From positions 154,690,001 to 154,754,000 of the forward strand of contig OZ024743.1 of NCBI GenBank assembly GCA_964016885.1: a stretch of 64,000 bases of DNA, given 5' to 3'. Position numbers and translations under genes: made by a program. The notes below the pieces were generated by a model. It was not told where the DNA came from. It saw only the letters and a list, made by a program, of their open reading frames with translations, and did not search any database. The number at the start of each line of letters is the position of its first letter. Position 1 is the stretch's first letter. Origin of the DNA: Eledone cirrhosa (taxonomy: Eukaryota). Below are positions 5,628 through 62,960 of this stretch, piece after piece.

Positions 5628-7875
5628 CTAGCACATTTACCCGGCGTTGCTCGGGGTTTGAAATTATGCTACGAATATACAGCTAGGAAGTAAAAGAAGA
5701 AATATATTTGTCTCCAACCTGTATAATAAGTATTCAATAAATAATGCAAACGAATATTTAGTACAATCTTTATACACATAAAACTATGCTGATAATGAAC
5801 GAAAACATTGAACAGGATGTAGTTATACAAATGATTAAAGACAATAGACGTTGCAAATCTGTAAAACAACAGGCAGTTGTTCTAAAGTACAAAGATTTGT
5901 AATGAAAGCAGAGTTGTATACACACAAAAAAAAAAACAATGAGAGTAGAATAAGAGAAAATATATTCTTTGAGAGCATCCTTTGCTGTGTATGGTTACAT
6001 TTTGAACTTATAATCCAAAATATCCTGCATGATATATCCATTGGTATGTTTCGTAATGAGATCAAGGAAGAGCTGTAATAAGTGTTTTTGTTAACACTAA
6101 AGCACTTCAGAATAGACGATTTTCTTTGTTTTTCTTTTCGGAACAAACGCAAAGAGAGTATCTCTACTACCAACACGTGAGCAGGCAACGTAGAATTCTC
6201 CGTGCGAAAACAAGGTTCATCCAAGTAAATTCCAGCGACGGACAGAGTTTCACCTTCCGACCTATTTATGGACATCGCAAAGGCAACAGGAAATGGAAAT
6301 TGGGTTCGGCGAAAGGAGAAGGGAGTATCCATGCCTGATTTTATAAGGCTAATTTTTGTTATTATCACATCTTCGCCTTTTCCACATCCGGATAGGGCAA
6401 ATTAACCTTACCATTGGAGCAGCACATTCTAGCCTATTCTCCCACCCACTTTTTAGCTTTACAATGTTGGCAGGTATTTGACATGGCATATATTTGAATA
6501 TCAGGATGGATTTGATAGTTTACATTAGGGTCATAATTAACTACCTTAAGGTTCCATCGTGAGCGTGATACCTTTGAAATACCCCTCGATAAAGGTCTAC
6601 GTTGAGCGTTGCCCTTCAGCCGAATAGCTCGACTTGTTACACTCTCTACAGCTCGTGCCGTAGCAGTAGCTGAAGCACTTCTCAATTGGCGACGTTGACG
6701 TTCTTGCTCAGTCTCAATTGCTCTGGCTGCAGCATTATCTGAAGCATTACGCGCACGGCATGTTTCATATGTTTGTACTATCTCTGCATATCTTGCTGCA
6801 GCAGTATCTGTAGCATGCATAGCAAGTCGTGTTTAACGTTGCTCTGTAGTCTCTGCAGCTCGTGCTGCAGCAGTGGCTTTAGCATTATTGCTTCGCCGCA
6901 CTAAACGACGCTCAGCGGCGGGCAAATGTGTCGCAATATTTTGTGATTGTCTATTTTCGGTTATCGGTGGAGCGTCATTTACACGCATTGTTTTCTTCGA
7001 CCAAGAGGTCAAAGTCCGAGAGCCAAAGATGTGCATACTTTCTTTTGGTGAAAAATTGTAAAGTCAAAATCTATGAATTGAAGCGTTACAGTAAAATAAA
7101 AATATATACTGGCAAAACTTAAAAAAATCCTTTGAATAACTACATCCTGTTCAGTATGTTCCTTCATTGTCAAAAACGTTTCATGTGTACAAATACAGCT
7201 GGAAGCATAGATAATGCCTGCCTCAAATGTGGGCGAAATTACTTTAAAAATGTAAAAGTTGTAGGTCCCAATGGTTTGAATGGAAATTCCCATAAGGATT
7301 GTTCTAAAAATAAACAAGCCACCATCAAAATTTCGTCAATACGAGACTGCTGCGAGATTAGGCCCTTACTGCGAAAATTAACACTTAATATAATAAGTGT
7401 TTTTTTAACTTTGAAAGTGTAAGTGTTTTTTTTACTTTTTTTGTATCAACATGGCTTATGAAAATAGCGATACCGACTTTGAAGGTTTTACACATGACGA
7501 CATTCAGAATAAACAAGAATCAAGCGATAATATTATGAATTTGATGTTTATATTTCTGAAATTTCATCCGACGATGATTGTTGCTTTAAAATTGAAAAAC
7601 GAAGTTCTCCATATATCCCCTCTCGCACTCTCTTTATAAGGATTGTCAATAAAGTTGGTTTTCTCCTATACATCAATTTTGCTACGGATAATTTTTCTAT
7701 AGATTTGTTATTGCTCAACATTGGTCGATTTGTAGGATTCGTGTGATGCGACAATACTAGCGACCTGTGCAACGTGCACAGCAAATTTGGTCAAATTCGG
7801 TTGGTAATTGTAAAAGCCTTAGTTATCCAAAGTTGTACACAGACACACACACATCCTCGCTTTTATATATATGGA
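5628..7875 (-). mobile_element. Internally deleted Helitron
   Basis: 5' TC at 7875, 3' hairpin CCCGAGCAACGCCGGG plus CTAG at 5628, inserted at A|T without TSD. Pif1 C-terminus (FAMSINRSEGETLSVAGIYLDEPCF) is joined near 6395 to N-terminal CQHCKAKKWVGE..MCCSNGKVNLP and STPR-like ET.EQR repeats. Confidence 0.92.
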
Positions 7876-8550: not shown

Positions 8551-9847
8551 TCTATATATTAATACCCTTATAAATACGTACCGTACGTCCGACCGTGTGT
8601 GTCATGCTTTCAGTAATTACATAGTAATTCATATGTTGTTGAAAACAAATCCGTATCATACATACAATAATTTGATGTAATGCTCAGCGCCGAATATTTT
8701 TTTCATTGTCTTATCATTCACCGCCCAAGAACGACTTCAACTCCCAACAGAAGAAATTATATATTTTATATTACTGTCGTGAGTTAAGTTGAAAATGGAT
8801 AATACACTCTATTTTTACCTCCTCCAAATAGGTTATGCTTTACCCTCAGTTAGTTTGTTACTTTTTCTTTTGTTACAAGTTTTTGTTTATGACAAGCATC
8901 ATCTCTAACCACTTTCTTATACCAGTTAGGTGTTCCTTATAATTACTGAAAAAAGAACATTCTTAAAAATGGAAGATAGAATAGGTCAATAAATAGAGGC
9001 AGCGAGAGAACCACAAAAAAGACGAGACAACGGTTACGAGCAGACGAGAGGCAAGGAATCCGTGACCGTATTCGAGAACACATGACATAAAGGCGGATTA
9101 ATATGTGCCAAGAGGAGAGGGAGGCTTATCTACAGCATAGAAGAGGCGGAGTTCATGATAGAAGAAGTAACATGAATCCAGATGCGAGAGAAGGACCTCT
9201 ACAGAATAGAAGAAACTCAGAGCATGACAGAACAAATAACATGAATCCAGAGGAGATAGAGGCTTATCTACAGAATAGAAGAAACGTAGATCATGATAGA
9301 AGAATTAATCTGAATCTAGAGGAGAGAGAAACCTATCTACATAATAATATAAACAGAGTTCAAGAGCGTAGAAATGACATGAATCCAGAAGAGAGAGAAA
9401 CTTATCTACATAATATAAGAAACAGAGATCAGGAGAGAAGAAATGACATGAATCCAGAGGAGAGAGCATGTTATCTAGAGAATATGAGCAACAGAGTTCA
9501 ACTGCGGCGAAATGCCATAATTGAAGAGTAACCTTTGAGCAAGGGCGATGAACAATGTCAGAGTTAATGTGATACCTCAAAACGAATCCACCCATGGCCG
9601 CAGAAGGGGAATCACCTTTACTAGAAACATTGTATATAGGGAAGTGCTTTAAAGGATGTTTTTTTATGTGTACTTTTATGAAATTAATTTTAAATAAACT
9701 TACATTATTTTACATAAAATAAAGGAAAATATAATTGTTTATTCACCAAAGTAGTGGAAATCAAACAACTTTGGTTAACTGATAAACATTCATTGGACAA
9801 TATTTACATTTCCAAAATTATCCGTGAATATTCACGGGTCAAGCTAG
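8551..9847 (+). mobile_element. Non-autonomous Helitron with 23-aa STPR-like coding repeats
   Basis: 5' TCTATATATTAA, 3' hairpin CCGTGAATATTCACGG (9822-9837) plus CTAG|T, and 69-bp repeats at 9103-9531 encoding MNPEERE.YL.N.RN. Confidence 0.8.
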
Positions 9848-9873: not shown

Positions 9874-11572
9874 GAGGCTGAACGGACGTCTTTTTGCTCG
9901 CTCCGGTAAGTCTATTTATTTACCTGTCAAACATATTTATTGAATTTGTTGTTGTTGTGTAAGGCATACAAGTCCTTGGACTTTGCCCTGTGAAGGTGAA
10001 AGAATAATATTTGGGCCTTTAGGCCCAAATATTTGAATTAATTTTGCATTTTTTAAAAAATGATCGAAACAAAAACATGGCTGAGCAACGCCCCCCCCCC
10101 CCCCCCCAGCGATATGTTTGCTGTCGTGCGACAACGACGTAAAAGTTGAGAAGAACTTTAAGGCGAAATTTGGGGAAATTGATGCAACAAACGCCACCAT
10201 AAACAGCATGAACACAGACGGCAATGGAAACAACACAGAACTCTAATTTTGAAAAAAATGACAGTAATAGCGACAACCAAAATACAGATAACAGAAAAAA
10301 TGACAAGTGCAACCAAAATATCAACACCACTAACATGAAACAAGAACAACGACAACAACAACACCACCTCTTCAAATTCTTCTGGAGGGCTCAGGTTCCG
10401 CTGGAGAGGCGGTTCATCGGTTGCCAGCACCCTCTGCGTGGAGGGCTGGACATCCCGTGGCTAATGATGCGCAGACACGCGTTGAGGCTGCGGCATCTCG
10501 AGATATTCTACCTAAACTGTGAACAGGTGTGGTCGCCATTCGTCAGACGGGCCTTTCCGCAGCTCGTCTCTTTGACTGAGCTGCAGTCCTGGATCAAGAA
10601 GAGACTGATACTGGGTGACTGGCGTCTGGAATGTGCCAGGCACTCGCTGCTCTCTACCAGGCGGGCAGTGCGGTCAGTGGAACTTCCACTCTCGAGTTCT
10701 ATAAAGGATTAGTGGTGGGTAAGTGCGACGACGCACTCGACGAGGCCCTGGGAGTCGACGAAGTCGAACTAACCAGTCTGTTCTGTAGGACTTTCGAGCC
10801 GGGAACGATGGATAATTTCCAAAAATCCCTCGCTTGGCAGTGCTACCGGCGGGCACAGCCGGTTCGAGATAAATTCTACAGGCACGGAAGTGCTGTCAGA
10901 AGGACTTGCCCAACATGCGCGCAGAGCAACGAAACCGTTATCCACTCACTTGTCCAGTGTCCGTGCATTACTGACTTGTGGAGTTATGTCGAACAGCTGT
11001 TGTCGTGTGAAGAACGGATCCGGCTATCAGCCGAGTCCATAGTGAAGATCGACCCGCAGCCTTCCTTTGGCCAGGAAGGGCAGGCAATTTTCCTCTGTCT
11101 GGTGGCAGTGGCGAAAGAGGTTGTATGGTGGAAGAGGTTGAAAGGACTGAAAACAGACACTTTTCTCCTCGGCCAATCCTTCATCAACTTTTTCAAGTTT
11201 CACTTGGAAAGGAAGTTGAGGGTGGAGAGAGAAGCGCTGCCCCCTCCCCCAGTACATTTGCTAAAAGGTGGGTGAATGTGCCGAGAATGGCCTGTGTGAG
11301 CTGGTCATGCGCCTGTAGGTGGGTGAATTTGAGGGGAAGAGGGGTGCTCTTCCAGGGTACTCTCGAAGCGTCGGGTCGTTCAGGATTGGTGGGGTACCTG
11401 AGCGAACCTGGGTGGTCATCCCCCCTATTGTGGAATTTTTCTTCTTGTATTTTTCTTGTTACTTTGTTATTGTTATTCATATTGTTTACTCGATTTTTCT
11501 GTAAAACCCCACTGTCCCATTCTTTTGTATTGTCCCCATATATGTCGGCCCTTGTGGCCAATAAATGAAATC
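9874..11572 (+). mobile_element. L1/Tx1-type LINE copy A (large internal deletion)
   Basis: Shares its 5' UTR with copies B and D, then jumps at about 10368 to the ORF2 C-terminus (LFKFFW..GGLDIP, zf-RVT CPTC..ETVIHSLVQC). 3' end AATAAATGAAATC followed by (ATT)n. Confidence 0.88.
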
Positions 11573-11593
11573 ATTATTATTATTAATGTTATT

Positions 11594-14500
11594 GGGTCTG
11601 ATCGGATGTCTTTTTGCTCGCTTTCGTAAGTCTATTTATTTATCGGTAAAAACTTATTTATTGAATTTTTGTTGTTGTGTAAGTGATATAAGCCCTTGGA
11701 CTTTGCCCTGTGAAGGGGAAAGTATAATATTTGGGCCTTTTGGCCAAATATTTGAAATTTTTTACATTATAAACAAATTATCGAAAAAAAATAAAACAGG
11801 TCTGAGCCACGCCCGCTAGAGATATGTCTGCTGTCGTGTGACAACAATGTAAAAGTTGAGAAGAGCTTTAAGGCGAATTTTACAGAAATTGATACAACAA
11901 ACACCACCGCAAACAACATGAACAAAGACAAACAATGGGAACAACACTGAGAACTCTAATTTTGAAATAATGACAAATGCAACAACAATATTAACACCAT
12001 TAACATGAAAACAAATAGCGACAACACATACAGCAACGATACCAAATGCACCGAGAACAACAACAACGGTGGCACCAAAGATATAGCGAACTGCAACAGT
12101 GACAACAGCAACAACACCAACAAGAACAACGACAACAACAATACCACCAACGACAGCAAGAAGAACACTTTCGCTGCGGCAGCAGCCAGAAGAGGCCATG
12201 CTTCAACATGGTCCTCTCAAACAAAGATGAAATGTTGGGCCAGGCCTGGAATCTCATCAAGCAAGAGCAAACCTGGGACAACTTAACTGTCCTAGTAGAA
12301 GCTATTCAAGCAGTGGAGCGCAGAACCGTGCATTACAGATGAATCTCAGCACAAACCAAAAGAGCAGCTTTAATTCCACAAGCAGATGTCGAAGTCGCGC
12401 TGAGGTGCATCAGGGATGACACCGAATACATAGCGAGGGACAGACAATAGCGCACCATTTCGGTGCTGTTTAAGTCTGAATCTCGCTATGAAACATGCTA
12501 TGACATCTTGCAAAAATAGCAAGGTCATCATGAACCCCTCCCACATGGGAAAAAGGACGGCCCGACACCGCATTCCACGAATCCCGCCAGGACTTGACAT
12601 GTGGCTTCTGGGATGTGTGATTGTGGAGGGGATGGATACCGTCCCAATAAAAGTGACAAGGATTGCCACAGAGAACTGGTCCGGGGTTGACCTAGAGATA
12701 CTTCTCCAGATCAGGCCGGATAATGTCAAGACATTCTCCGACCACATCCGTCTTCAGAATGGGACGGTAATTCACATTATGACCGAGGGAGAAGGGCCGC
12801 ATTGTTTTGTTTGTGGGGAAAAAACCCATTTGCGAGGCTTCTGCCCTCAACTGCTGAAATATGCAAGGGGTCTAGGGGCTCCACTGCTGCCGACGCCGGG
12901 GCTAGGACCACAACCAACACCAGCACCGGCAAAACCACCAGCAACAACACCAATAGAGAGACCACCACCAACATTGACCACTCAGTGGGGAAATGAGGTA
13001 AGTTGTCAAATCCACCCTCGCCCCCAAAATACACACATTAATAAAAAGATAAACACACACACAGACACAGACACACTTACAGACAAAGACCCCTCATCTA
13101 ACAGTAGTGAAGATGAGGGAAAACAAAAATCCCCAAAAATACAAAAAAGGAAAGACAAAAAGAATAAGAAAATTCAACAAGCAGAAAAACACCAACAATA
13201 AAAAATACAGACACCTCCCACGCAAAAATCTCTCCAACAACACCAACATCAACATCAACACCACCATCACCATCACCCTCCAAACGCAAACAACCTAAAC
13301 AGACGCAAGAACAAATACACACATAAACATCTGAAACCACAGACACTGCACTCACAACAAACACAGACACAACCGAAACAACACCATCAAAACCATCACT
13401 ACCCCAGCCACGCAAACAAATGAAATCACACCAACAAAACATACAAAATTTCGTGCACGTCAGTTGGGCCAACAAGGAACTGATGGCCTTCCTAGCTCGA
13501 AGTGGAGAAATACAAAAAGACGGGGAAATTTTTAAATCGAGCACATTTCGCATGCCGGAAGGTTTGTATCTGGTGCGAATGTCGCTCGATTTATACAAAG
13601 AGATACGAAATAGCTTTCATTGGGACTTTAAAAGTCTTGAAGTGGGTTTTATATAAGGGTTATATAAAACCCACTTCAAGACTTTTAAAGCGGTTCCCAA
13701 AGAAACCAAACCAACTATGGAGGTCGAACCACCCGCCTTTCACAAGAGCCCGGGAGGTAAGTAAACCTTTCCTCTCTCTCTTTTAGTCTGCCAACATGAC
13801 CGTATTAAGAGTAGGAAGTTTAAATGTTTACGGCCTGGAAACGTCCTGGAAGCAGGGTCACCTGCTCAATGACATCAGGTCTCTAGAAATGGATGTAATT
13901 GCCGTCAGCGAGACCAAGATTTCCGACACGCGTGCACCAGCCCCCCATTTTCGACGACTATCAGATCTTTGCATCTGTTAGTCGGCCGGGTATGGGAGGT
14001 GGGGTGGCAGTGCTGTTTAGAACAGGCCTGGATCTCGAGGTAATGTCGATCTTCCGGGAACCGGACGGTAAGTTGGTGGTCCTGGTCGTGAACAATAACA
14101 AAGGTGGTGCCTTTAGACTGTTGGCTGTCTAGGCCCCTACTGGGGCAGGACGGCCGGACTTCAGTCGCTACCTCGATGGCTTGCCGCAACTCTCGACGGA
14201 CGACGCTGAGCACTGCTAAAGGCCGATTACTTCAGTCGAGATTCGAGATACCCTTGTCGGCTGCATGAGGCGCAAGTCACCCGGTTTGGATGGTCTGCCC
14301 TACGAGCTTTACGTAGGGCAGACCATCCAATCTCCTCGAAGCGCTCTACTGCAATTGGCAGCAGAACCGGAGTATTCCCAGTTCTGTGAGCCGGGGCGTA
14401 GTGACGCGGATAAGGAAAGACAAGAACAAGGCGGGCAAATTAGAAAATTTCGGGGCCTATAACTCTGCTCAACACAGAGTTTAAGATTTTGGCCAAGGTG

Positions 14501-15503
14501 TTAGCGAAGAGGTTGGCGCTTGTCGTCGGGAATTTGGTTGGTTAGGCGCAACCTTGCGCAATCCCAACCAGTTCTGTACACGACAACCTCCACCTGATTC
14601 GATACATCATAGAGAGGGTAGGGTGTAAACCTGACTTCGGTTGGGCTATGATCAATTTATATCTATGGAAAGCATCCGATAGGGTCGACCATCGATATCT
14701 GGAGGCTGTCCCCTGGCTTCGGCCCCGTCTTCAGAAGAAGCTGGATCGCTGCAATGCACAGCGGCACCTGCTCGATGGTCAAAGTTAATGGCCACCTCTC
14801 GGAACCTTTTCAGATCTCCCGATCGGTTCGTCAAGGGTGCCCTCTCTCCTCCCTTCTCTACGCATTGGCTCTCGAGCCTTTACTGCGGAAGCTGGAGCTG
14901 TTGAAGGGCACCACGTTCGAACCGGGACGCGGAACGGATGTGTCGGCTAGTGCGGAGACCATCAGCGTGATGGTATCGGACACCTCAGAAATCGAGGTGG
15001 TCGGCAACTTATTGGAGGAATATGAAAGTTTGACGGGAGCAAAACTTAACACGGAAAAGTCGGTGGGCTTGACACTCGGCACCTTGAGAGACAAGTCCAT
15101 GCAGTCCAACAGCGTCGTTGGGCGCTGGATGGACGGACCGATAAATTTGCTCGGGATTTGGTTCAGGCCAGACGTCCAGATGAATAAGAATTGGGACGAT
15201 GTGACGGGCAAGGTAGCCAGTCTCACCCAGAAATGGGCTGCAGGGAAGCTATCACTGAAAGGTCGGGTGGAGGAGGCGAACGCGTACATCGCATCCGTCA
15301 TCTACTACCGTCTGACTGTCGTCCCTTGCCTCCGTTCGCGTCTCGCCATATTGGAGCCGCTCCTCTTCAAATTCTTGTGGAGGGGTCAGATTCCTTTGGT
15401 GAGGCGGTCCATCTGCTGCCAGCCCGCTCTACGTGGAGGGCTGCCCATGCCGTGGTTAATGATGCGCAGACAGGCGCTGAAGCTGTGGCATCTCCAGATA
15501 TTC
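11594..15503 (+). mobile_element. L1/Tx1-type LINE copy B (3'-truncated)
   Basis: ORF1 with CCHC knuckle CFVCGEKTHLRGFC. ORF2 from ATG 13796 with APE (GSLNVYGL, AVSETK) and RT (KSPGLDGLPYE, SVRQGCPLS). Frameshifts and deletions throughout. Confidence 0.9.
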
Positions 15504-18320
15504 ATCTCCACCTCAGTAACCGAAACGGAAACAAATAAAAAACCACACCAACAAACAGTAAAAAGTCTGTGCTTGTCAGAAGGGCCAGCGAGAAAATGAT
15601 GGCCGTCTTATCATGAAGAGAGGACATTCAGAGTAGGAGATCTTTGAATTTAGCACATTTTGCGTGCCAAAATATGTGTTTCTGGTGCGAATTTCGCTCG
15701 ACTCATACAAAGAAATTCTAGAAAGCTTTCCTCAGGACGTTGGAACCAAGAACGTGAAACCCACATCGAGACTTTTAAATGGGTTCCCAAAAGATACCCC
15801 ACCTACCATGGAGGTCGAACCAACCGATCTTCACAAGACCCCGGGAGGTAAGTAAAACTTCCCTCTCTTTTTAGCTTGGCAACATGGCCATATTAAGAGT
15901 AGGATGATTAAATGTTCGTGGCTTGGGGCCGTCTTGGAAGCAGGGTCACCTGCTCAACGACCACGGGTGTCTGGAAATGGATGTGAGTGCCGTCAGCAAG
16001 ACCAGCATTTCCGACTCACGAGCACTAGCCCTCATTTTCGACGACTATCAGTTGTTCGCATCTGTTAGCAGGCCGTGAATAGGAGGAGGGGTAGCAGTAC
16101 TGTTTAGGAAAGGCTTGGATCTCGAGGTTAGATTGATATTCCGGGACTCGGACTGTAAGTTGGTGGTCCTGGATGTGAGCAATAGCGAAGGTGGTGTCTT
16201 TAGACTGTCCTGGCCGTATACGCCCCTACCAGGGTCGGACGACAAGACATCTTTAGGCGACTGGAAACATTTTTGGGTACATCTCGCCCTTTTCCTGTTA
16301 GCGGGGGGCTGGATCGGCATCTTAGACGCACGCTGGGATTGTGTGGGCGCAGCTTATAGGAGCGGGGGTGCAAAAGCCTCAAGCACCTATCAGCCAGTTA
16401 CAACTATCTGACAGGTACCGACTAGATTTCCCCAATGCGCCAGTGTGGACGTGGACCAACCGCATAGGGTCATCTAGATCGTATATAGACAGGATCCTTA
16501 TTAAGAAAATAGACAGAAATAGTGTAGGCTGCCCACTTCTTAAATCAGTCGTCTATTTAGATCTCAAATTTCGACCTAGATAAAACGCGTAGGTTAGGAC
16601 CTGGTTACTGGAAGCTGAACATGTCATTTCCGGACGTAAGACTTACAGGGCCGGATCAACAATTTAATCAAGCAACAGTTAACAGGCGGGATCGTCAACA
16701 ACATATGGTGTTGGAAGGGAGGGGGGGGTCTCTCAAAAGAGATATTAGAGTAACTTCGATAGGGTTTTACAAAGAAGTAGCTTTAGAGAAAAATAGAAAG
16801 GAGTGGGAGAATATTTGCTCGGTTCTTCGGATTGAGTGGTGGGTTAGAGGCAGTGGCGGACTTCAGTTCTTACCTTGACAGCTTGCCGTGGATCTCGACG
16901 GTCGAGGATGAGCCCTGAGAAAGGCCGATTACTTCAGCCTAAATTCAGGACGCCCTTGTCGGTTGCACGAGGCGCATGTCACCCGGTTTGCATGGCCTTC
17001 TCTACGGGTTTTACGTAAATATACCAGACGAATGCATACTTCGCGTCCATTCGTCGTGCCCTGCCACCGTCCGCGCCTAACCAAGTTGGAACGGCTGCTC
17101 TTAAAATTCTTATGGAGAGGACAAGTCCTGTTAGTGAGGCGGTCCATCTGCTGCCAGCACCTTCTACTCGGAGGATTTGTCATGCCATGGCTAATGATGC
17201 GCAGATATGCGCTGAGGCTACGGCATCTCTGATCTTCTGCCTAAACGGTGAGCAGGTGTGGTCGCCGTTTATCAGTCGGGCTTTTTGCAAGACGTGTCTT
17301 TGACTGAGCTACAGTCCTGGGTCAAGAAGAGACCAAGACTGGGTGACTGCCACCTGTAATGTTGCCAGGCACTCACTGCCTTCAACCAAGCGGGCAATGC
17401 GATCAGTGGTTCTTCCACTCTCCAGTTATCTAAAGGATTAGTGGTGGGAAAGTGCGATTACGCACTCGGAGCGGCTTTGGGCTTCGACAAAGTTGAACTG
17501 ACCTGACCTTTCCGGAAGACCTTCGAGCCGCGGACGAAAGATAACTTCTAGAAATCCCTGGCTTGGCAGTGCGACTGGGGGGCACTGCCGGTTCGAGATA
17601 AACTCTACAGGCACGGAAGTGATGTCAGATGGACATGCCCGAGGTGCGCACTGAGCGACGAAACCGTTCTGCACGCACTTGTCCAAAGTCCGTGCATTAA
17701 TGACTTGTGGAATTATCTCGAGCAGCTGTGTCGCGTGTAGAACAGATCCGGCTATCGGCCGAGTCTATAGTGAAGATCGACCCCCCGCCATCATTTTGCC
17801 ATGAAGAGCAGGCAATTTTTCTCAATCCGGTGGCCGTTGCGAAAGAGGTTGTATGGTGGACCAGATTGAAAGGACTGAAGACATACATTTTTCTCTTCGG
17901 CCAATCCCTCATCAACTTCTTCAAGGTTCACCTGGAAAGGAAGGTGAGGGTGGAGACAGAAGTTCTGTCCCCCAGTACATTTGCTAAAAGGTGGATGAAT
18001 GTAGCGAGAATGGTCCGTGTGAGTGGGCCTACTGTAACCATGCGCCTATAGGCTGTCTAATTTGATGAGAAGAGGTGCGTTCTCCCCGTATGCCCTAGAA
18101 GCGCAGGGTGGTTAAGGATTGGTGGGGTAACTGAGTCATCTCTGTGTCGTACACCCTCTATTGTGGAATCTATTTTGTTATATTTATACATAGTTTATTT
18201 TATATATTTTTTATATATTCATTGTTAAATTAGTCTTCCGATTGTGCACTTTTACTCGAGCTTATTGTAAACCCCCACTTTCCCTGTTTTTGTATTATCC
18301 TTTTGGCCAATAAATGAAAC
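15504..18320 (+). mobile_element. L1/Tx1-type LINE copy C (5'-truncated, deleted)
   Basis: ORF1 C-terminus homologous to 13440-13764, ORF2 ATG at 15884, APE motifs (WTWTNRIGSSRSYIDR, GPGYWKLN), zf-RVT region, AATAAATGAAA end. Confidence 0.88.
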
Positions 18321-19448: not shown

Positions 19449-22400
19449 GGTCTTTTCGGACGTCTTTTTGCTCGCTCCCTGTAAGTCGCGTTATTGACCT
19501 GTTATAATTATTTGTTGTTTATTTTTTCTTGTTTTATAAGGGAAATAAGCCCTTTGCCTTTTCCCTGTGAAGGGGAATGTGTAATATTTGGGCCTTCTGA
19601 ACCGAATATTTGAACAAAAGTTGAACATTTTAATTTAAAAGAAAAAAAAATACATGGCTGAGGCAATATGTCTGCTCTCGTGTGACAACGGAGTAAACGT
19701 TGAGAGGAGCGTTACAAAAATTAATACAACAAACACTACCACAAACAACGTGAACAAAGACAACAACACTGAAAACATTATTTTTTAAAAAATTATCACA
19801 CCAACTCCAACAATAACAGTTACAACCAAAATACAGACAGCAGAAAAAAATGCCAACACTGAAAATATACGTAATAGCAATGGCAATTATTTAGATTTGT
19901 CACATACAAACATGGATTTCCCGCCGTTACAAACTTCTACACGTGTTAAAGCCGCAATGCCCACCCCTAGAATCTCGAAAAAACATCCAACACCACTGAC
20001 ACCATCACGACCACAGCAACAGCTGAAACAAGAAATAACTTATTTTCTCTTCATATCGAAATGGATTCTCAGAAAATTGACTCTTCCACGCCGAACGCCA
20101 CTGACACCACCACCACCACGACCACCACAACTGAAACTAAAAATAATAACAACAAAAATAACAATAACATTATCAGCAACAACGGCAAAAATAAGAATAA
20201 CAACAACATCAACACCAGCGCAAAACCAAGTGAGTCGTTTGCTAAAGTGGCAAACAAAAATGAAACGGTGGAGGTAAGCCGGGAAAAATTGAATGAAGCG
20301 AATGCTAAAAAAATATGGTTACAAGGTCAGCATCACCCCCCTACGCCCATCTAATGCCATGGAGCATCGGCGCCTATTCACCGTGTCATAGCGGACGATA
20401 AATATCAAAGCGCGCCGAGTGGACCGGGCATCCGAGTCCCAGATACAAAAAGCTTTGGGACATGTGTGGGCTCAAAAAACCCACATCGGACGTGGGCAAA
20501 CATGTGGAAACGAGGACGTGTCCTTTGGAACCCCACAGGAAGCGAGAGAGCACTCCAGGGCCCCATTTAAAAGTGACGAGTTCACACTCGTCCCAAGCTA
20601 TTGTGGTCAAAGAAGGGTGAGGATCAGGGTGACCCATGTTCCACCGGCCATTGACATTCCCTGGCTAATGGCTGCCGTCCTAGCCACCATCGAGGCGGAC
20701 ACTAAAGTAATTGAGGTGATAAAAGTAAAGCGGGTGAACCGGTTCGGATCTGGGATGGAACTCCCGATTCAAGCGGACCAAAGACACACACAGGAAATTC
20801 CAGAGGTGATAGACCTCAATGACGGCAGCCACCTCACTTTAATCGTTGGAGGTAGACGGCCTAGTTGTTTCGCTTGTGGCGAAGGAGCCTACCTAAAAGC
20901 TTTCTGCCCTTAGGCTAAAAGGTTGAGGACACCTCTAAAACCCACCCCAGCAACACAACCATGAAAACCAGCAGCCGAAATGACAGCAACAACAGAAGTA
21001 ACTGTAGCAGCAACAGTAGCAAAACTAATACCACCACCACCCACCGCGCCAGAATTAGAACCAGCCCCTCCATAATCTACCATGCCACAACCAAAACCAA
21101 CGCCTGTGGAGGATTTTCCACTTCCCGGCATATCGCAACTGGAGACAGGTTGTGACGACCAGGAGGAGTGGGAAATGGTATCAGAAAAAAGAAAAAAATG
21201 AAAACGCGTGGTCTTGGGGTGTCATGGAAGCAGGACCACCTGCTCAACGACCTCAGGTCACTAAACATAGATGTAGTGGCCATCTGCGAGACCAGAATAT
21301 CCGAAGCACGAGCCTTCGCACCGATCTTTGGCGGGTACGATGTATGCGCATCTCCCAGCCGTCTAGGATCAATTGGAGGAGTTGCGTGCTTTTTCGTAAA
21401 GGCTTGGATCTCGCCATACGGGCCATCATCCTTTACCCAGAAGGTAAGTTGGTGGTGCTGTACGTGACCAGCGGACGGGAAAGCTTTCAGGCTAGTGGCC
21501 GTCTATGCCCCGACAGGAGCAGGGCGGCCTGCTTTCTTCCAGCGTCAGGAGACCTTTCTTATAACTCCCGCTCTTTAATGTTAGTGGGATTCTGGAACGG
21601 GATCTTAGATGCACGCTGAGACTGCGTGGGATTAGCGAATAGGTGAGGAGAGTGTGAATTCTTCGCAAACCTGCTCAGACGGTTTCAACTGTATGATAGG
21701 TACCGTCTGGATTTCAAGTATATACCAAGGTGGATATGGACAAACCGCATCGGGTCATCCAGATCATATCAAGACAGGGTATTTTGCAGGGAAATAAATA
21801 GGTCTAGCATAGGCTGTCCACAATTCAAAATAGTCGAATACACGGACCACAAATTCGTGATCTGTGAGGTTGACTTAGATAGCCTTCATGGACAAGGACC
21901 CGGCTACTGGATGCTAAACGCGTCGTTAATAGCGCGCAAGCCCTACAGTGGTGGGCCGGATCGCGGGATAGACTTTAGTGCCTACCTCGACGGACTGCCG
22001 CCGCTCTCGGCCACTGAGACTGAGTGTTGCGAAAAGCCGATGACAGCCGCTGAAGTATGGGAGGCAATGATTGGCTGCACAAGGGGTAAATCGCCTGGTA
22101 TGGATGTTCTGCCCTACGAACTTTACGTACACATGCCAAACTTTTTCGGAGAGTCTTGGCGGACGTCTACTGCGAATGGCAACAGAAAGGGAGACTTTCC
22201 AGCTCTGTGAGCCCAGGAGTGGTGGCGCGGCTTGGAAAGTATCCGAACAAGGGAGATAACATAGATAATTTCAGGCCCATAACTATGCTAAACACAGAGT
22301 TCAGGATTTTGGCCAAGGTGCTAGAAAAGAGGTTGGCGCGTGTCGTTGGTGTTTGGGTGGGAGAGGCGCAGAATTGTGCCATCCCAGACAGATCCATCCA

Positions 22401-24368
22401 GGTTAACCTCCACCTTATGCGATACATCATGGAGAGGGTATCTAGGGAACCTGGCACGGGTGGGACCTCGATCAATTTAGATCAGTCGAAAGCTTTCGAC
22501 TGGAGGCAATCCTGAAGGCGGCTTGCCTTGAGCCCGTCTTCAGAAGCTGGATCGCTGCCATGCACAGCGACATCTGCTCTGTGGTGAGAGTGAACGTTCA
22601 CCTTTCGGATCCGTTTAACATCATGCGCTCGGTCCGTGAAGGATGTCCCCTCTCGTCCCTGTTGTTGGTATTGACTCTCGACCCATTACTGCACAAACTG
22701 TAGACGTTAAGGAGGATCACGCGCGAACTAGGATGCGGAATATCCGTGTCAGCATATGCGGACGATGTCACCGTAGTGTTGTCGAACGCCAAACAGGCGA
22801 TCGGCACTACACTAAGAGAATACGAAGCGGTGACAGGAGCAATGATCAACCAGGAAAAGTCGGTGGCCCTGTAGCTCCGCACCTGGAGAGGCAGGTCCAT
22901 GCCGTCCAACAGTGTTGTCGGTCGTTGGACGGATGGACCGGTGAAATTGCTAGGGGTCTGGTTTGGCACAGACATCCAGACAGACAAAAGCTGGGACGTG
23001 GTGACGAGCAGGGTGGCTTCTCTCACTCAGAAATGGGCAGAGAGGAAGCTATTCCTGAAAGATCGAGTGGAGATGGCCAATGTGTACATCGCGTCCGTCA
23101 TCTACTACCGTCTGACCGTCGTGCCTGGTCCTAAGTCTCGCTTGACTGCGCTGGAACGTTTACTCCTTTGATTTTTGAGGAAAGGACGCGCTCCGATGGT
23201 CTGACGGTCCATCTGCTGTCAACAACCTCTACGTGGAAGGCTGGACATGCCGTGACTCATGATGAGCAGACACGTGCTCAAGCTACGACATCTCTACATC
23301 TACCTCGACTGTGATCAGGTGTGTGCGACGTTGCTAGACTCGTGTTTCCCCAGCTCGTCTCCTTGAAGGAGCTGCAGTCTTAGTCAAGCGAAGACCAAGA
23401 GGGAGCGCTTGGAGGTTGGAATGTCTTCAGGCGCTGGCAGCCCTGGACCAGTCGGGCAATGTGATCGGTGGAAACTCCACCTCGGCATTCACTAGAGGAT
23501 TAGTGGAGGGGAAGAGCGACGACGTACTTCGGGAGACTCTGGGCGTCGACGAAAATCAATTAGCCAATCTGTTCGGGAGAACTTTCGGGCCGGGGCCTAT
23601 GGACAACTGCCAGATATCCCTGGCATGGCAGTGCTACCGAGGAGCTTTGCCAGTTCGGTATAAATTCTACACGCATGGAAGTACCTTCAGCCGGGCATGC
23701 CTGATATGCGCGTAGGGCGACGAAACCGTCCTGAACGCAGTCGTCCAGTGTCCGATCATTGATCACTTGTGGGTTTATGTCGAACACCTTCTTTCGCGTG
23801 TAGGACGGCTCCGGCTATCAACTGAGTCCATCGTGAGTATTGCCCCGCCCTCTTCCTTTAGGCGGGAAGGGCAGGAAGTTCTTAACTGTCAGGTGGCCAT
23901 GGCGAAAGGGACAGTGTTGTGGGCGCGTTTGAAAGGGCTGGAGATGAACACTTACCTCCTCGTTGATGCCCTGATTAACATTTTCAAATTTCATTTGAAA
24001 AGGAAAATCAGGGTACAGAGGGAAGTGCTCTCTTCCCAGCATTTTGTTGAAAGATGGGTGAGAGAAGCAAGCATGGTCCGAGTTAATGGGCTTACTCTGA
24101 GTATGCGCCTGTAAATTGAAGGAGAAAAACTGGGAGATGGCACTTGTCCTGGTGGTCAGGGTCACCGTGGCTTTTTTAATGGCCTTTCTCCACGATGGTG
24201 CTCGGAAGTCTCCCTCCTATTGGTGAATTTATCATTGTTTCTTTTTTGTTACATCCTCTGTTTGTGTTTTGTTTAAGCTCAGAAATGCCTATTTGTACCG
24301 TCCTATATTCTCCTTTATTGTCCTTAATGTCTTACATTGTGTAAATCCTTGTGGTTAATAAAGAAATC
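19449..24368 (+). mobile_element. L1/Tx1-type LINE copy D (both ends present, decayed)
   Basis: Shared 5' UTR, ORF1 knuckle remnant CFACGEGAYLKAFC, APE, RT (NFRPITMLNTEFRILAKVL, DQSKAFD, AYADD), zf-RVT, AATAAAGAAATC followed by ATTATT. Confidence 0.9.
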
Positions 24369-29351: not shown

Positions 29352-29392
<41 letters not shown>

Positions 29393-29850
29393 AAAAAATG
29401 GGGAGAAGAATACTGCAGGTTGCACATGGATAACATGTAATAAAATAAGTCCCTCATCAGTGATTTGCCGACGATCATAGATATTTCATTGCATTAAAAA
29501 TCATATACCTCACGTCGGTGCAATAATAACTAAATTAAGTTATTAGGACAATTAAAACGCGTAAAGCGAGTGAGACAAGATAACAACAAAGAGGAGAGCT
29601 AACCGTAGAAGGAAGGGAACAAGCTTCATAGTTATTCTGTTAGCATAAGCTAGGTGAATATGTATGTGTACATATATGTGTACAGACGTACAGTAGTATG
29701 CATATATATACATACATTCACACATATATATATGTACGTATGGGTTTACCGAACATTTGTCATAATGCTCGGTTTGTAAACAAACAGCCCGAATTATGCC
29801 GTACAGCGTTCGGCAACCATCGTCGTCATTTTTTCAACACTGACACAGGA

Positions 29851-29893
29851 ACGATGTACTAGTTTCAAGCTTATTAGCTATCGTCAGTATCGT
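29851..29893 (-). ncRNA. Minimal type I hammerhead ribozyme motif
   Basis: ACGATA-CTGACGA-TAGCT AATA AGCTT-GAAA-CTAG-TA-CATCGT: intact core, palindromic ACTAGT, one stem I mismatch. Confidence 0.78.
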
Positions 29894-30285
29894 ATAGCTT
29901 CCTGTCAGATGATTGAACTTTTGAAAGTATATACTTTCCTTATGCATATTAACGACTGAGAAGCCTATTTAACATATCGAGTGAGTTAGTCGGCCGGGCG
30001 TACCGAACACTATAAATGGAAAAGAATGAAACGAAATTTCATTTCTCACTCTTAGTACGGCTGATATCTAAATATAAGTATGTATGCGTACATACATATA
30101 TGTGTACAGACGTACAGTAGTATGTATATATATATATACATACATGCACACACATATATATATGTACGTATTGGTTTACCGAACATATATTATAATGTTC
30201 GGTTTGTTTGTAAACAAACAGGCCGAATTACGTCATACAGTGTTCGGCAACCATCGTTGCCTTTTTGTTCAACACAGACACAGGA

Positions 30286-30328
30286 GCGATGTACTAGTTT
30301 TAAGCTTATTAGCTATCGTCAGCATCAT
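30286..30328 (-). ncRNA. Minimal hammerhead, second tandem copy
   Basis: ATGATG-CTGACGA-TAGCTAATAAGCTT-AAAA-CTAG-TA-CATCGC, with GAAA mutated to AAAA. Confidence 0.65.
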
Positions 30329-30506
30329 ATACCTTCCTGTCAGATGATTGAACGTTTGCATATTAACGGCCGAGCAGCCTAATTTGCATATCGAGTCAGT
30401 TACTAGGCCGGGCATACCGAAAACGATAAATAGAAAAGAATGAAACGAAATTTCATCTCACTCTTAGTACTTTTACATATATACATATATAAATATATAT
30501 ATATAT

Positions 30507-30761
30507 TGTTATACTTGGGGAAGGTCATATTTGTGTAATATTGCCAGAATTAATAACAGAACACACTCACTGTTTGGTTGGATTTCGCTTCTCGCTTCTG
30601 TGTCTTTTATATCGGTAATCTAACTTACTCGGCCATCAAAACCAAGCAAACAGTGAGTGTGTTCTGTTATTAATTCTGGCAATATTACACAAATATGACC
30701 CTCCCTAAGTATAACACTAAATGTTTCCACACGCGATTTCATATAAAAAACCTGGCAAAAC
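30507..30761. repeat. Foldback element: ~70-bp near-perfect inverted repeats plus ~45-nt tail on one arm
   Basis: 30507-30576 versus 30647-30716. A related single-orientation copy lies at about 54290-54465. Confidence 0.85.
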
Positions 30762-33779: not shown

Positions 33780-33830
33780 AGATTCTACAGGACTAGAACT
33801 GTTTCATTCTTTAGAAATCATCAGGAATCT
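33780..33830 (-). ncRNA. Type I hammerhead ribozyme motif with canonical core
   Basis: AGATTC-CTGATGA-TTTCTAAAGAAT-GAAA-CAG TTCTAGTC CTG-TA-GAATCT: perfect 6-bp stem I and 4-bp stem III. Confidence 0.85.
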
Positions 33831-46662: not shown

Positions 46663-49600
46663 CTCGCTGAGATACCCGGCGTTGTCCGGTATAACTCTCA
46701 ATGGAGTAGTCGTTGTTCAAAATGAAGTGAAAGACTTCCGTTAAACACGACTATTGAAGTAACAATTTATAGGCGTTGGCCCTATAGAGGGCCTTTGAAC
46801 GTTCACTTTGAAATAATTCTGTGGCGGTGCTTAGAGCAAAGGCGAATCCGATGGTAACAATTTAGAGTTGGTGGCCCTAACCAGAGCCTTGGATCGGTCA
46901 CTCTTAAAAGACTCAGCGGCGATGCTGCCAGCAAAGACGAATCCAGCGATAACAATTTATAATTGGTGGCCCTGATGAGGATCTTTTAACGTTCACTTTG
47001 AAATATTTCAGCCGCGGTGCTGCCAGCAAAGATTAATGCGATGGTAACAATTTAAACTTGGTGGACCTGAAGATGGCCTTGGATCGTTCATTCTTAATAG
47101 TCCCAGCGGCAGAGCTGTCAGCAAAGATGATTCCGATTACAGGTGGTTGCCCTTAAGAAGTCCTTCACACCACTTTTGTGTTGTGTGTCGTATTTGCTTT
47201 GCTTGTTATTTGAGATTGCAACCTAGAAAATCATGTAACACTCGGTGGCCACAAAAACGGCCTTGAAAAGATCATGCTGGAATGTCAAAAACATGTGTAA
47301 ATAAGATGTAGGGAAAAGGAGATTAATTAGGTTAAAACTACAGAACATCGATCGCGAAGCGTAATAACAACATATCACTGTGGAAAACGGAGACATTGAA
47401 CATTTATAACGTATAGCAAATGCAACCTCAGGGACAAAGGGACACAAATAGCACACGCATACAGTAAATGTAAGCACTTATACACAAATGCAGCGATTGC
47501 TTGTTAGCGGATGGGGTGCCTATAAAACTTCCTTATAGACTATATTTTGTGTTTTCTTGCGAGTTGCAAAAGCAAATAGGTTATGTCGGCTTCCCACTAG
47601 AGAGCAGCCAACATATAGTTGACCACGGGCGAAGGATGGTTCTTCTAAATTAAGCCCTACGACCGTCAGCGTCTGGCGCTATGCTTTGCTAATGGACATG
47701 GCGAAACTGAGACAGAGAGAGAATTGCAGCCTTCTGAATGTGAAAGGTATATCTTTAGAGGATGGAATGAGAGGTATCCTTGCTATGAAGGTAGTATCCC
47801 CCTTACCACATCATGTAAGTATTGTTCCCTCAATAACTTGGGTATCGCCTTTTGGACGACCATACTTTGCCGTTGGAAAGCCTTCGGGGATCCAATTCCT
47901 GAGGAGCATGACAGGGGCACATTTCTTAAGTCGCAGTAAATGTTGTGGCAATAAGGGAGGGTCTAGGGAGTTAAGATATTCTGTGTGGTAATTAACAACT
48001 TCACCGGATCAGACATAGAGAAAAGGGATTTGTAGACGTGCTGGTTTTCAGACAAGCATAGCATGAGCTAATCATTGATGCTTCCAACTATGTGGTATTT
48101 CGAAGCCAATATTGCGCGTTCACACAGCCACTCTTGATTTGTGTAGTTCTCCTCAAGATTAGGAAAAACAGACGTCCGCAAATCAGCAATTGACTTAACG
48201 CATCTGCAAATCCCTGTGAGGTCCGCTGCACCATATCCGTCGAGTGGGATTTTGCCATCTCCCAACGATAAATTGTCAGCAGCAAAACCCGCTGATGACT
48301 GATCACCGTGCAGTTGTGCTCCCATGTTTGTTGTAAGCGTCAGCTTTCTTACATAATGCGAAAGTGGGTAGGCCTTAATGCATGCACCAACCTCATCAGC
48401 CCGCGTACCTTTTGGGATTACAGGCAGAGTCTATCGGAAGTCCCCAGATAACAGTAAAGTGACACCTCTCATTGGTTCTTGACAGTCCCTGATGCCTCGA
48501 AAGCCGCCTTGTGGGCCATTGCGTATTCGTCCAAAACAATTAGTAGGAAGCATTTTAACACCAGTGCTTTTCCGGAAGACTTGCTGATGTTGCTCGTGGG
48601 TCTCTCAGAGGATGCCACGTTGCGAGGAAGACTGAAGGCAGAATGGCCGTATTGCCGCCAGGCAGCAAATTGTCTGCAATGCCGGAAGAAACGACGGCCA
48701 ATGCGATGTTTCCGTGTTGCCTCACTGCAGCGTGTAAAAGTTTGATTACAAATGTTTTGCCCATGCCTCCAGTTGCGTCCAGAAAGAATATAACCACTCC
48801 ACGATTACGGATGGAATCAATGACAATGTTGTAGGCTTGTTTTTGATCAATTTCTTCAACATACCTTTTGAGTTCGTCGACATCATATGACGTTTCACGT
48901 ATAATGTCGCTGGAAATGTCAGATGACGCATCTCGAAGTGTTTACGGAAGCCCATATTTCTCGAAAACATCTCATCTCCGCCCATTGAAGCCACTCTGTC
49001 TTCAATATGGATCAGAGCTCTGATATATATTGCGTCTGAAAAGTCGACATCTAAGTTTTGAGATTACAATTGAGCGAGACGCCTATATTCGTCTGCAAAA
49101 TCATCTTTAAACTTTTGCCATAAAGTGTAAGGATCGCTCAATACACTGACGTGCAAGAGGATAGCAAAAAGTGCCCTTAGACTACTGGGTGATTGTAAGA
49201 TGGCAACTTCCGTCAAAGTTGCACACCATTGCGCGTCAACTTCTAAAAGTCCACTCCTCAAGCAGGCTTCCCTGTACGTTCGACGGATGAGTGAAGCTGG
49301 TAGGCCGTTTTACCTCATTAAGCAGAAGTCGCAGGTAGACGCATTCGTGTTGGGTTGGGTGGACCGTATAAACTCGCCCAAGGCAATTGTTGAATTTGAT
49401 GCCCGGATGCCCAACCACTCTTGCCCTACCTTCTTTCTTAGCCTTTTGTCCGGTTCCATCTATCGTAAGACGGTATTTCAGAATACAGCAGATTTCGACC
49501 GAAGTCGTCGTGTTGACAACATTTGAAAAAAGCGGTGAGTGTAGTTTACTTTGGTGAGATCGCTAGCTGAGCAGCTGTTGCATCGTTGAAATACACCCGT

Positions 49601-61691: not shown

Positions 61692-62960
61692 TTCCGAGCG
61701 TTAGACGAGTGCTTCCCGCCGTCGAACAGATACCACAAGATATTCAACCGCCACACGGTGAGGTTTTCCTTCTCCACAGCATCTAACATGGCCGACAACA
61801 TGGCCAAAATCAACGCGGTGAAGATGGGAACCTCGACCGCCTACCGCGGCGGCAGAATGAACGTCTATCGGAGCACGGAGGTCCCCTCGCAGACCAGTCT
61901 TCCAACCAAAACACAGACACCGCGGCTGCCGCCAGGCTAGCGGTTTTTCATGCAATCCAACACCGGTCGGGAATGAGTGGCGGAGGAGAAACCACCGTGT
62001 CGGCGAAAACACTCTGAGAATCGGGAGAGGGCCCTAGAAGATCAAGGGACAGGCGTCCGAAATGAACAACATAACGACAGAACGTGCAACTGCAGAGCGG
62101 GCACGCAGTACCCCCTGCAGGAAAGATGCCTGACGAAGGGCCTGGTATATAAATGTGTGGTTAGCACATATAATATAACGCGCACCTACATCGGCGCAAC
62201 ATCCATGACCTTTAAATCGCGGATGTATAACCACACGACCTCTTTCAAGGATCAGAGTAAGATGCACTCTACTTGGCTGGCGGACCTGTTGTGTGACTTG
62301 AAGTACAAAGGCACTCCATATGCCCTTGACTGGAGTATCGTTCGGCACGCGAATACATACTCGGCTGGAAAATGAAAGTGTAGGCTATGCCTATACGAGG
62401 CCATGGAGATAGTCAGACTGAAGGATAATGCGGTCAACCTGAAATCGGAATTAATCATGACGTGCAGACACCAGAGGTGCACACTCTCAGCATATTATCC
62501 ACCGGCAAGCCCAGGTTAAAAGCATGCGGCGGAGCGTGCGCCGACCAGAGCGGCGAAACTGGTTCAAGGAATCACACACCAAACCCTGATGACTATATAT
62601 GCCCCGTGGGGTTTACCGAAATAACCCGGGATGCATACCCGCCTCTACACGTCACCCATGGCAAGAACATCGCCTGAGACGGCACATATTCACCTGGATT
62701 CTACTGACTTTCAGTCAAATGCATTACACCTATAGGACAATATACCTCAACCACAGTGACATATACAGTATAGCCGAAAAGCGCACCGCATGCATGAGTA
62801 TATTTTCAATAGCGAGTCCATACTCTCCACGTATTCCATCTTGTAACATATATTATATTTTCTGAATATCTCATGCTTCTCCTGTGTACTATCTCATACG
62901 CATACACGTTCCTCATTCTTCTTTTTTATATATCTCTTTAACGTTATATCTATAATTTTA
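61690..62960 (+). mobile_element. 5'-truncated Penelope-like element
   Basis: FPPSNRYHKIFNRHTVRFSFST, CNCRAGTQYPLQERCL..LVYKC..YIGAT..FKSRMYNHTTSF, CRLCLYE. CTGATGA...GAAA at 62586-62621 in the 3' UTR. Confidence 0.9.

What the first reader, a model, noticed from the sequence alone, without database searches (positions are those of the whole stretch)
29660..30470. Best retrozyme candidate: head-to-tail dimer with a 43-nt minimal hammerhead per unit
Seen: two ~420-435-bp units with hammerheads 435 nt apart. Their defects are complementary, giving an intact consensus ACGATG-CUGACGA-UAGCU AAUA AGCUU-GAAA-CUAG-UA-CAUCGU. Stem III is essentially only the palindrome ACUAGU. Inference: a dimer transcript could pair the two palindromes as a double hammerhead and release a ~430-nt monomer able to circularise, as described for metazoan non-LTR retrozymes.
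Basis: partly seen in the sequence, partly recalled or inferred. Interest (0 to 1): 0.75.

Follow-up and report, generated by a model that had tools for sequence, protein, structure and literature searches.

The report
Decayed copy of Penelope-mobilised retrozyme
This is an old, mutated two-unit copy of a very abundant non-coding repeat carrying a hammerhead (self-cutting RNA) motif; the family's insertion ends match those of Penelope-like jumping genes, which likely copy it from an RNA that is possibly circular, but this copy is predicted to be unable to cut out a unit and is a poor one to test.

Summary
The sequence observation holds: two minus-strand units with type I hammerheads 435 nt apart. 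They belong to a ~430-nt non-coding family with 10,575 exact 30-nt hammerhead cores in this 3.0-Gb genome. Copies end at two fixed sites ~56 nt apart, mostly in (TA)n (154 of 169 arms). In head-to-head insertions, 42 of 44 classifiable pairs have one end of each type: the Penelope-like element (PLE) 'tail' signature. Units within an insertion share subfamily alleles, and copies read through the cut site, so the template is a circle or an uncleaved multimer. The ribozyme is canonical with an extended stem I, not minimal, and is invariant between two young subfamilies 21% apart. This locus is not the best candidate: its units are ~6% decayed, and the defects (G12A in unit A, a stem I mismatch in unit B) do not complement in a double hammerhead. 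No coding PLE with this unit as its pLTR was found (0 of 142 loci). No cleavage or RNA data. The scan has already reported this kind, probably this family, on other DNA of this genome. New member of a known kind.

The parts
30426..30470 (-). 5'-truncated start of the insertion: unit positions 387-430 (last part of the 'tail' segment)
30012..30425 (-). Unit A, full (positions 1-430), with a 21-nt deletion; 6.0% from its subfamily consensus or 5.6% (the two units give 5.6 and 6.0%)
29659..30011 (-). Unit B, positions 1 to about 368; ends near the upstream start site (E374 class), where an unrelated repeat follows
30275..30343 (-). Extended type I hammerhead A; core starts 30322, predicted cut after 30292; carries G12A at 30301
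29840..29908 (-). Extended type I hammerhead B; core starts 29887, predicted cut after 29857; core intact, G2.1A at 29888 breaks the first stem I pair
29857..30291 (-). 435-nt stretch between the two predicted cut sites (the monomer that two cuts would release); predicted circular fold z = -6.3
30012..30073 (-). 'Tail': segment between the family's two fixed 3' end sites (about positions 374 and 430), containing a short hairpin
30474..30506 (.). TA-rich tract at the 5' side of the insertion, shared with a neighbouring hairpin repeat; likely the target site

Best explanation
The locus is an old, decayed 1.9-unit insertion of an abundant ~430-nt non-coding hammerhead repeat (a non-LTR retrozyme) that is likely copied into (TA)n tracts by the reverse transcriptase-endonuclease of a Penelope-like element, and this copy is predicted to be unable to release a monomer. 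Shown in sequence: over 10,000 hammerheads; two fixed 3' ends ~56 nt apart followed by (TA)n; scattered 5' ends; head-to-head arms with one end of each type; copies running through the unit junction and the cut site; one subfamily per insertion; a ribozyme conserved between subfamilies but decaying neutrally once inserted. Inferred: multimer transcripts of intact arrays cleave through a double hammerhead (the ACUAGU palindromes pair), and the monomer, whose ends are clamped by the long stem I, is ligated to a circle. Also inferred: a PLE protein cuts both strands of (TA)n and starts cDNA at the two sites, one per strand, giving the two arms. A Neptune/Nematis-type element is the likeliest helper; it is not identified. 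Odds: PLE mobilisation about 0.9; circle rather than uncleaved multimer as the main template about 0.55; this locus unable to give a monomer about 0.85.
For: Copy number: (10,575 and 16,453 exact hits, controls 0). Ends: 169 of 196 arms end at one of two sites, 154 of those 169 with (TA)n; 42 of 44 classifiable head-to-head pairs have one of each (P = 5.6e-11; two of the pairs are local duplicates in L130). [quoted passage not shown] One template per insertion: subfamily-diagnostic sites differ 0.071 (55 adjacent pairs) and 0.059 (76 opposite-arm pairs) against 0.442 between loci. Selection on the ribozyme: 0 of 25 core and stem II/III sites differ between young subfamilies differing at 70 of 332 sites, P = 0.002; one stem I pair alternates A-U, U.G, G.U, C-G. 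Folding. Helper candidates: intact 844-1096-aa GIY-YIG PLE frames whose 3' ends run into (TA)n (21 of 24 ORF ends examined); one family has a hammerhead of the same build. A second, 310-nt family shows the same two-end pattern. Locus decay; G12A slows cleavage >500-fold to about 1e6-fold (PMC2553840).
Against: No cleavage, transcript or circle was observed. No coding PLE shares sequence with the unit (best E = 1.0 against 24 PLE 3' regions), so the helper rests on shared insertion style only. 5' ends show no excess at the cut site (6 of 197 at positions 150-162, about 6 expected, none at 156), so the genome gives no direct trace of cleavage; most arms were chosen for holding a hammerhead, which weakens that test. 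In the one purified PLE, uncleaved RNA was the dominant template. Two loci (L059, L138) mix subfamilies in one arm, and the young array L121 has two variants that recur in both arms, which a single monomer circle does not predict. Only one pair in the ribozyme shows a change on both sides. The free MFE fold pairs core CUG with the palindrome rather than forming the active fold. Only 1 of 9 Xenopus dimers cleaved in vitro.
Confidence: 0.78

Rival explanations
1. Same family and PLE helper, but the template is an uncleaved linear multimer transcript; the hammerhead acts rarely or at another step, and circles play no part in spread.
For: [quoted passage not shown] No 5' ends pile up at the cut site. 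Mixed-subfamily arms L059 and L138; recurring variants in L121; L056 grew by local duplication, so arrays can re-expand at the DNA level.
Against: The ribozyme core is invariant across 21% divergence, so it matters during propagation. Most loci hold under two units (66 of 81 clusters among the first 100 hits have one exact core), yet new insertions reach 10 units (L121). The monomer folds as a strongly self-paired circle (z = -8.8; partly due to AT palindromes).
Confidence: 0.35
2. The unit is the pseudo-LTR of a coding PLE family that I did not sample, and the copies are its 5'-truncated stubs.
For: All insertion hallmarks are PLE-like. Xenopus retrozymes are related to PLE pLTRs (10.64898/2026.07.22.740005). 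Only the 150 best of 10,596 GIY-YIG candidates were scored and 50 loci read.
Against: Long arms always continue into another unit, never into an ORF. In 0 of 142 family loci is the unit in pLTR position; the three nearest cases are insertions at or beyond another PLE's own end. Descent from an ancient pLTR remains open.
Confidence: 0.1
3. One reading: this particular dimer is a working double hammerhead whose defects complement and which releases a ~430-nt circle.
For: Both palindromes are intact, A's 5' strand pairs fully with B's 3' strand, and unit B's catalytic core is intact.
Against: The fully paired site is the one served by the G12A core; the site served by the intact core has 4 of 6 pairs; the double fold lies 17.4 kcal/mol above the MFE against 6.0 for a young dimer. 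The defects are private decay.
Confidence: 0.1

Closest known systems
Metazoan non-LTR retrozymes (Cervera and de la Pena 2020, PMC7229834; parts 2-4 of 6 read), especially axolotl HHR_Amex2 and mussel 350-390-bp repeats
   Same: Type I hammerhead once per short tandem unit, GC under 50%, no ORF, thousands of copies, weak palindromic stem III, U.U at the base of stem II as in HHR_Amex2, self-paired predicted circle.
   Different: Expression, cleavage and circles are shown there and untested here. Here most copies are 1-2 units, dispersed, often two-armed, with two fixed ends in (TA)n; the parts I read describe none of this.
Non-LTR retrozymes as non-autonomous PLE derivatives (Li, Clavereau and Pollet 2026, 10.64898/2026.07.22.740005; parts 1-3 of 5 read)
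   Same: Co-occurs with coding PLEs; monomers, dimers and multimers.
   Different: Their link rests on co-occurrence and pLTR homology. Here no pLTR homologue was found, and the link rests on insertion-end anatomy. This locus fails their 'active' criterion of two consecutive complete hammerheads.
EN+ Penelope-like element insertions (Craig et al. 2021, PMC8557442, passages; Frangieh et al. 2024, PMC11167929, parts 1-2 of 4)
   Same: Partial tandems, inverted 5'-truncated copy, tail at one end only, two internal RT start sites, AT-rich or (TA)n targets.
   Different: No ORF; the tail is about 56 nt rather than 30-40; the repeat unit is the whole element.
[quoted passage not shown]
   Same: Palindromic stem III, predicted to work as a dimer.
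   Different: Helix II is 4 bp (not 7-8) and helix I is 6 bp plus a distal helix (not 4-5 bp): this fits their 'canonical' metazoan type instead.

Membership tests
Metazoan non-LTR retrozyme | Type I hammerhead with conserved core in each unit | tested here: met
   Family: 10,575 exact cores, 93.7% of cells paired on 82 copies. Locus: unit A carries G12A.
Metazoan non-LTR retrozyme | Short (150-450 bp) head-to-tail repeats, multiple copies, GC under 50% | tested here: met
   Units 420-435 nt (one subfamily about 475), arrays up to 7.5 units per arm, GC 0.35-0.38.
Metazoan non-LTR retrozyme | Non-coding; not part of a longer coding element | tested here: met
   No ORF of 130 aa or more at the locus; 0 of 142 loci in pLTR position.
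Metazoan non-LTR retrozyme | Self-cleavage of the transcript | not testable with these tools
   Only folding energies.
Metazoan non-LTR retrozyme | Expressed as linear and circular monomer RNA | not testable with these tools
   Needs RNA data of this species; see Tried and rejected.
'Active' retrozyme locus (Li et al. 2026 criterion) | Two consecutive units with complete hammerheads | tested here: not met
   This locus: G12A in A, G2.1A in B. Met by other loci such as L121.
PLE-mobilised insertion | Two fixed 3' ends with a tail on one end only | tested here: met
   42 of 44 classifiable pairs. At this locus only the E374-class end is seen; an inverted stub at the other side is inconclusive.
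PLE-mobilised insertion | Inverted 5'-truncated copy head-to-head with the main copy | tested here: met
   60 head-to-head pairs among 197 arms in 116 loci; not seen at this locus.
PLE-mobilised insertion | AT-rich or (TA)n target | tested here: met
   154 of 169 arms ending at the fixed sites.
PLE-mobilised insertion | An identified autonomous partner sharing terminal sequence | tested here: inconclusive
   TA-ending PLEs with long frames exist, none with homology to the unit; sampling was partial.
pLTR of a coding PLE | Unit directly flanks an RT/GIY-YIG ORF | tested here: not met
   0 of 142 loci.
min-HHR of PLEs (Cervera and de la Pena 2014) | Helix II 7-8 bp, helix I 4-5 bp, no helix III insert | tested here: not met
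   Helix II 4 bp, helix I 6 + 9 bp, 2-nt insert in helix III.

The most novel reading that the evidence does not exclude
Each insertion of this family is written by a Penelope-type enzyme acting on both strands of a cut (TA)n at once, starting at two fixed sites on one small circular ribozyme RNA, one site per strand, and rolling round it. The thousands of two-armed copies would then be a natural record of how PLE proteins make both junctions and how retrozyme circles are mobilised, with a 430-nt RNA as a ready in vitro substrate.
Probability: 0.45. Interest if true: 0.62.

Novelty: new member of a known kind. Interest (0 to 1): 0.33.

Why it matters
The locus itself is an ordinary decayed copy. 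The family matters because the link between animal retrozymes and Penelope-like elements rests in print on co-occurrence and pLTR similarity, while here it can be read from insertion ends: two start sites, one per arm, in 42 of 44 pairs. My searches listed no paper reporting this for retrozymes, though it is described for PLEs; supplements of the papers were not read and could hold it. Young intact arrays and long PLE frames in the same genome make the helper, the template (circle or multimer) and second-strand priming testable. The scan has already noted the same pattern for several families of this genome, so this finding adds a further count rather than a new idea.

Tried and rejected
Expression: no RNA holder listed; laying three unlabelled contig runs of one sample on L121 showed only that the family is abundant; neither bears on expression. 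Rfam gave no hammerhead hit in the window. Dimeric circle for the ABAB array L056: rejected, its first unit is a third type, which fits local duplication. Peak of 5' ends at the cut site: not found. Short inverted stubs beside single arms: 4 of 33 E430 arms have an E374 stub and 2 of 27 E374 arms an E430 stub (one E374 arm has an E374 stub); the window's possible stub has 2 mismatches in 12, inconclusive. Watson-Crick pairing between loop II and the stem I bulge: not supported, because the youngest copies change the loop base involved. Absence of inherited changes in the core on the main sample (0 of 42) was set aside as biased, since 60 loci were chosen on an exact core; one search replaces it. 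Helper search: the window's own C-terminal GIY-YIG fragment (30 loci read) and Pfam GIY-YIG (50 loci read) gave no pLTR like the unit; L145, L252, L139 and L135 are nested insertions. Pfam did not recognise the YRDD-type PLE fragments. Target-site duplications were not assessed because of the TA tracts. No search of other species was made; the tool holds no relatives of this genome.

Full report
Observation. The minus strand of 30470-29659 holds two head-to-tail units with type I hammerhead cores at 30322 and 29887, 435 nt apart. Rfam did not list it. A 30-nt exact core occurs 10,575 times in the 3.0-Gb genome and a second 23-nt probe 16,453 times, both with control 0. Among the first 100 core hits I count by eye 81 clusters: 66 single, 7 tandem dimers, one trimer, one pentamer and 6 inverted pairs, all head-to-head.

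Sample. I read 140 loci: the 30 best DNA matches, 60 consecutive core hits on contig C1, and 50 from the lists. 24 duplicates were dropped, leaving 116 loci and 197 arms of 40 nt or more. A 430-nt unit was numbered from the family's downstream end; the core starts at 125 and the predicted cut is 155|156.

Insertion anatomy. Of 196 arms not cut by a locus edge, 88 end at about 430, 81 at about 374 and 27 elsewhere; 154 of the 169 fixed ends run into (TA)n. 5' ends are scattered, with 6 of 197 at 150-162 (about 6 expected) and none at 156; most arms were chosen for holding a hammerhead, so this test is weak. Of 60 head-to-head pairs, 16 have a truncated end; of the other 44, 42 have one E374 and one E430 end, one has two E374 and one two E430 (P = 5.6e-11; two pairs are duplicates within L130). 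[quoted passage not shown] Frangieh et al. show that the tail lies between two internal RT start sites, that both target strands are cut and extended, and that uncleaved RNA is the main template (PMC11167929, parts 1-2 of 4). A second family in this genome (310 nt, 5,874 pattern hits) shows the same two-end pattern in the arrays inspected.

Template. Arms run through the unit junction and the cut site, up to 7.5 units (L121). At 47 non-CpG subfamily-diagnostic sites, adjacent units differ 0.071 (55 pairs) and opposite arms 0.059 (76 pairs), near the private background of 0.04, against 0.442 between loci (23,862 pairs) (L121 supplies many pairs). One RNA lineage therefore usually supplies both arms. 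Against a single monomer circle: L059 and L138 mix subfamilies and two variants recur in both arms of L121 (assembly polishing could also cause this). L056 is a local duplication. Circle and uncleaved multimer cannot be told apart here.

Ribozyme. On 82 of 125 distinct copies aligned, 93.7% of cells pair in a structure with a 6-bp proximal stem I, a 6-nt bulge, a 9-bp distal helix, a 4-bp stem II over a U.U, and a 2-bp stem III; one pair changes on both sides. By the definitions of Cervera and de la Pena 2014 (PMC4209133, parts 1-2 of 4) this is the canonical metazoan type, not the minimal PLE type; the U.U recalls axolotl HHR_Amex2, which cleaves better as a dimer (PMC7229834, parts 2-4 of 6). 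Two young subfamilies found without using the core (L121; L251/L287) differ at 70 of 332 sites but at 0 of 25 core and stem II/III sites (P = 0.002). In 57 pieces not selected on the core, core positions mutate at the background rate (14 of 613 against 247 of 9,293) and 23 of 57 are intact: selection acts on propagating RNA, not on inserted DNA. For a young dimer the double hammerhead lies 6.0 kcal/mol above the MFE and two monomer folds 13.6; the circular monomer folds with z = -8.8, partly through AT palindromes.

This locus. Its units are 5.6% and 6.0% from their subfamily consensus; the median of 24 other members is 3.2% and the 90th percentile 5.1%. Unit A has G12A, reported to slow cleavage over 500-fold in minimal and about a million-fold in full-length hammerheads (PMC2553840, passages). 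Unit B has G2.1A. In a type I double hammerhead each unit's catalytic half cuts the other's site (from the fold modelled and Fig. 1 legend). A's dead half gets the fully paired site and B's half gets 4 of 6 pairs; the double fold costs 17.4 kcal/mol. The defects make an intact consensus, not an intact molecule. Unit B ends near position 368, where a different ~300-bp repeat follows; no clear inverted arm is present.

Helper. The genome holds many PLEs: 46,991 first-look candidates for the window's YRDD-type endonuclease fragment and 10,596 for Pfam GIY-YIG. Frames of 844-1096 aa have a C-terminal GIY-YIG and a cysteine linker, the Neptune/Nematis mark in Craig et al. (no tree was built). 21 of 24 ORF ends examined reach a (TA)7 run within 900 nt, and one family carries a hammerhead with the same U.U and palindromic stem III and appears to have two ends. 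None resembles the unit (best E = 1.0). 33 of 142 family loci have a PLE fragment nearby; 3 have one upstream on the same strand within 1.3 kb, and each is an insertion at or beyond that PLE's own end. The unit is thus free-standing in my sample; its helper and ancestor remain unidentified.

Comparison and novelty. It works like a metazoan non-LTR retrozyme and meets the sequence-level features; cleavage and circles are untested. Li et al. 2026 (10.64898/2026.07.22.740005, parts 1-3 of 5) already propose PLE origin and mobilisation, and found 1 of 9 dimers active. Searches listed no paper giving the paired-end rule for retrozymes; supplements were not read. I reached this reading before opening the scan's notes; they then showed the same kind on other DNA of this genome, including a ~422-nt array that is probably this family and the 310-nt family (a look-up by sequence was blank). 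One note calls the genome an octopus; I did not verify that. Verdict: new member of a known kind; the locus is a poor test object, the family a good one. Interest 0.33.

Noticed in passing
window 30501-30722: Hairpin with 85-nt arms. Its arm resembles the 3' end region behind a PLE endonuclease fragment in L139 (by eye) and is common in other loci; likely a short two-armed PLE-type insertion sharing the TA tract with the retrozyme.
   Followed up: partly
window 29355-29658: A different ~300-bp repeat (96% to L005, 94% to L179) directly after unit B, ending in (TA)n.
   Followed up: partly
L174, L181-L210 (e.g. G000:C1:43587071-43593649); window 33801-33826: Second hammerhead family, 310-nt unit, 5,874 pattern hits, very young two-armed arrays (one with 3 + 19 units all 308 bp apart); a decayed fragment lies in the window.
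   Followed up: partly
L251, L261-L290: Young (99% identical) subfamily of the same family with ~475-nt units, 21% from the L121 type, arrays of 10 or more units; hairpins outside the ribozyme are kept with changed sequence.
   Followed up: yes
window 57890-60100 (-) and 61977-62372 (+): Broken PLE frames with a YRDD-type RT and C-terminal GIY-YIG, Hydra-clade-like by recalled motifs only; no Pfam hit.
   Followed up: partly
L139, L157, L175, L220, L243: A recurring hammerhead with a long helix II; in L139 it follows a PLE endonuclease fragment of another family, so my notebook entry tying it to the Hydra-like family is probably wrong.
   Followed up: partly
window 46759-47137: 95-bp tandem repeat (4 copies) whose consensus holds a CUGAAGA motif; possibly decayed PLE-type hammerhead repeats.
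   Followed up: no
window 9111-9500, 5838-6832: 69-bp coding-like repeat (weak STPR hit) beside helicase-like fragments (judged by eye); probably a Helitron remnant.
   Followed up: no
window 10212-15596 and 20392-24111: Two decayed LINE-type elements; RVT_1 hit at 14652-15596 below the curated cut-off.
   Followed up: no
L246, L256: Coding Neptune/Nematis-type PLEs themselves occur as head-to-head inverted pairs of 5'-truncated frames.
   Followed up: no
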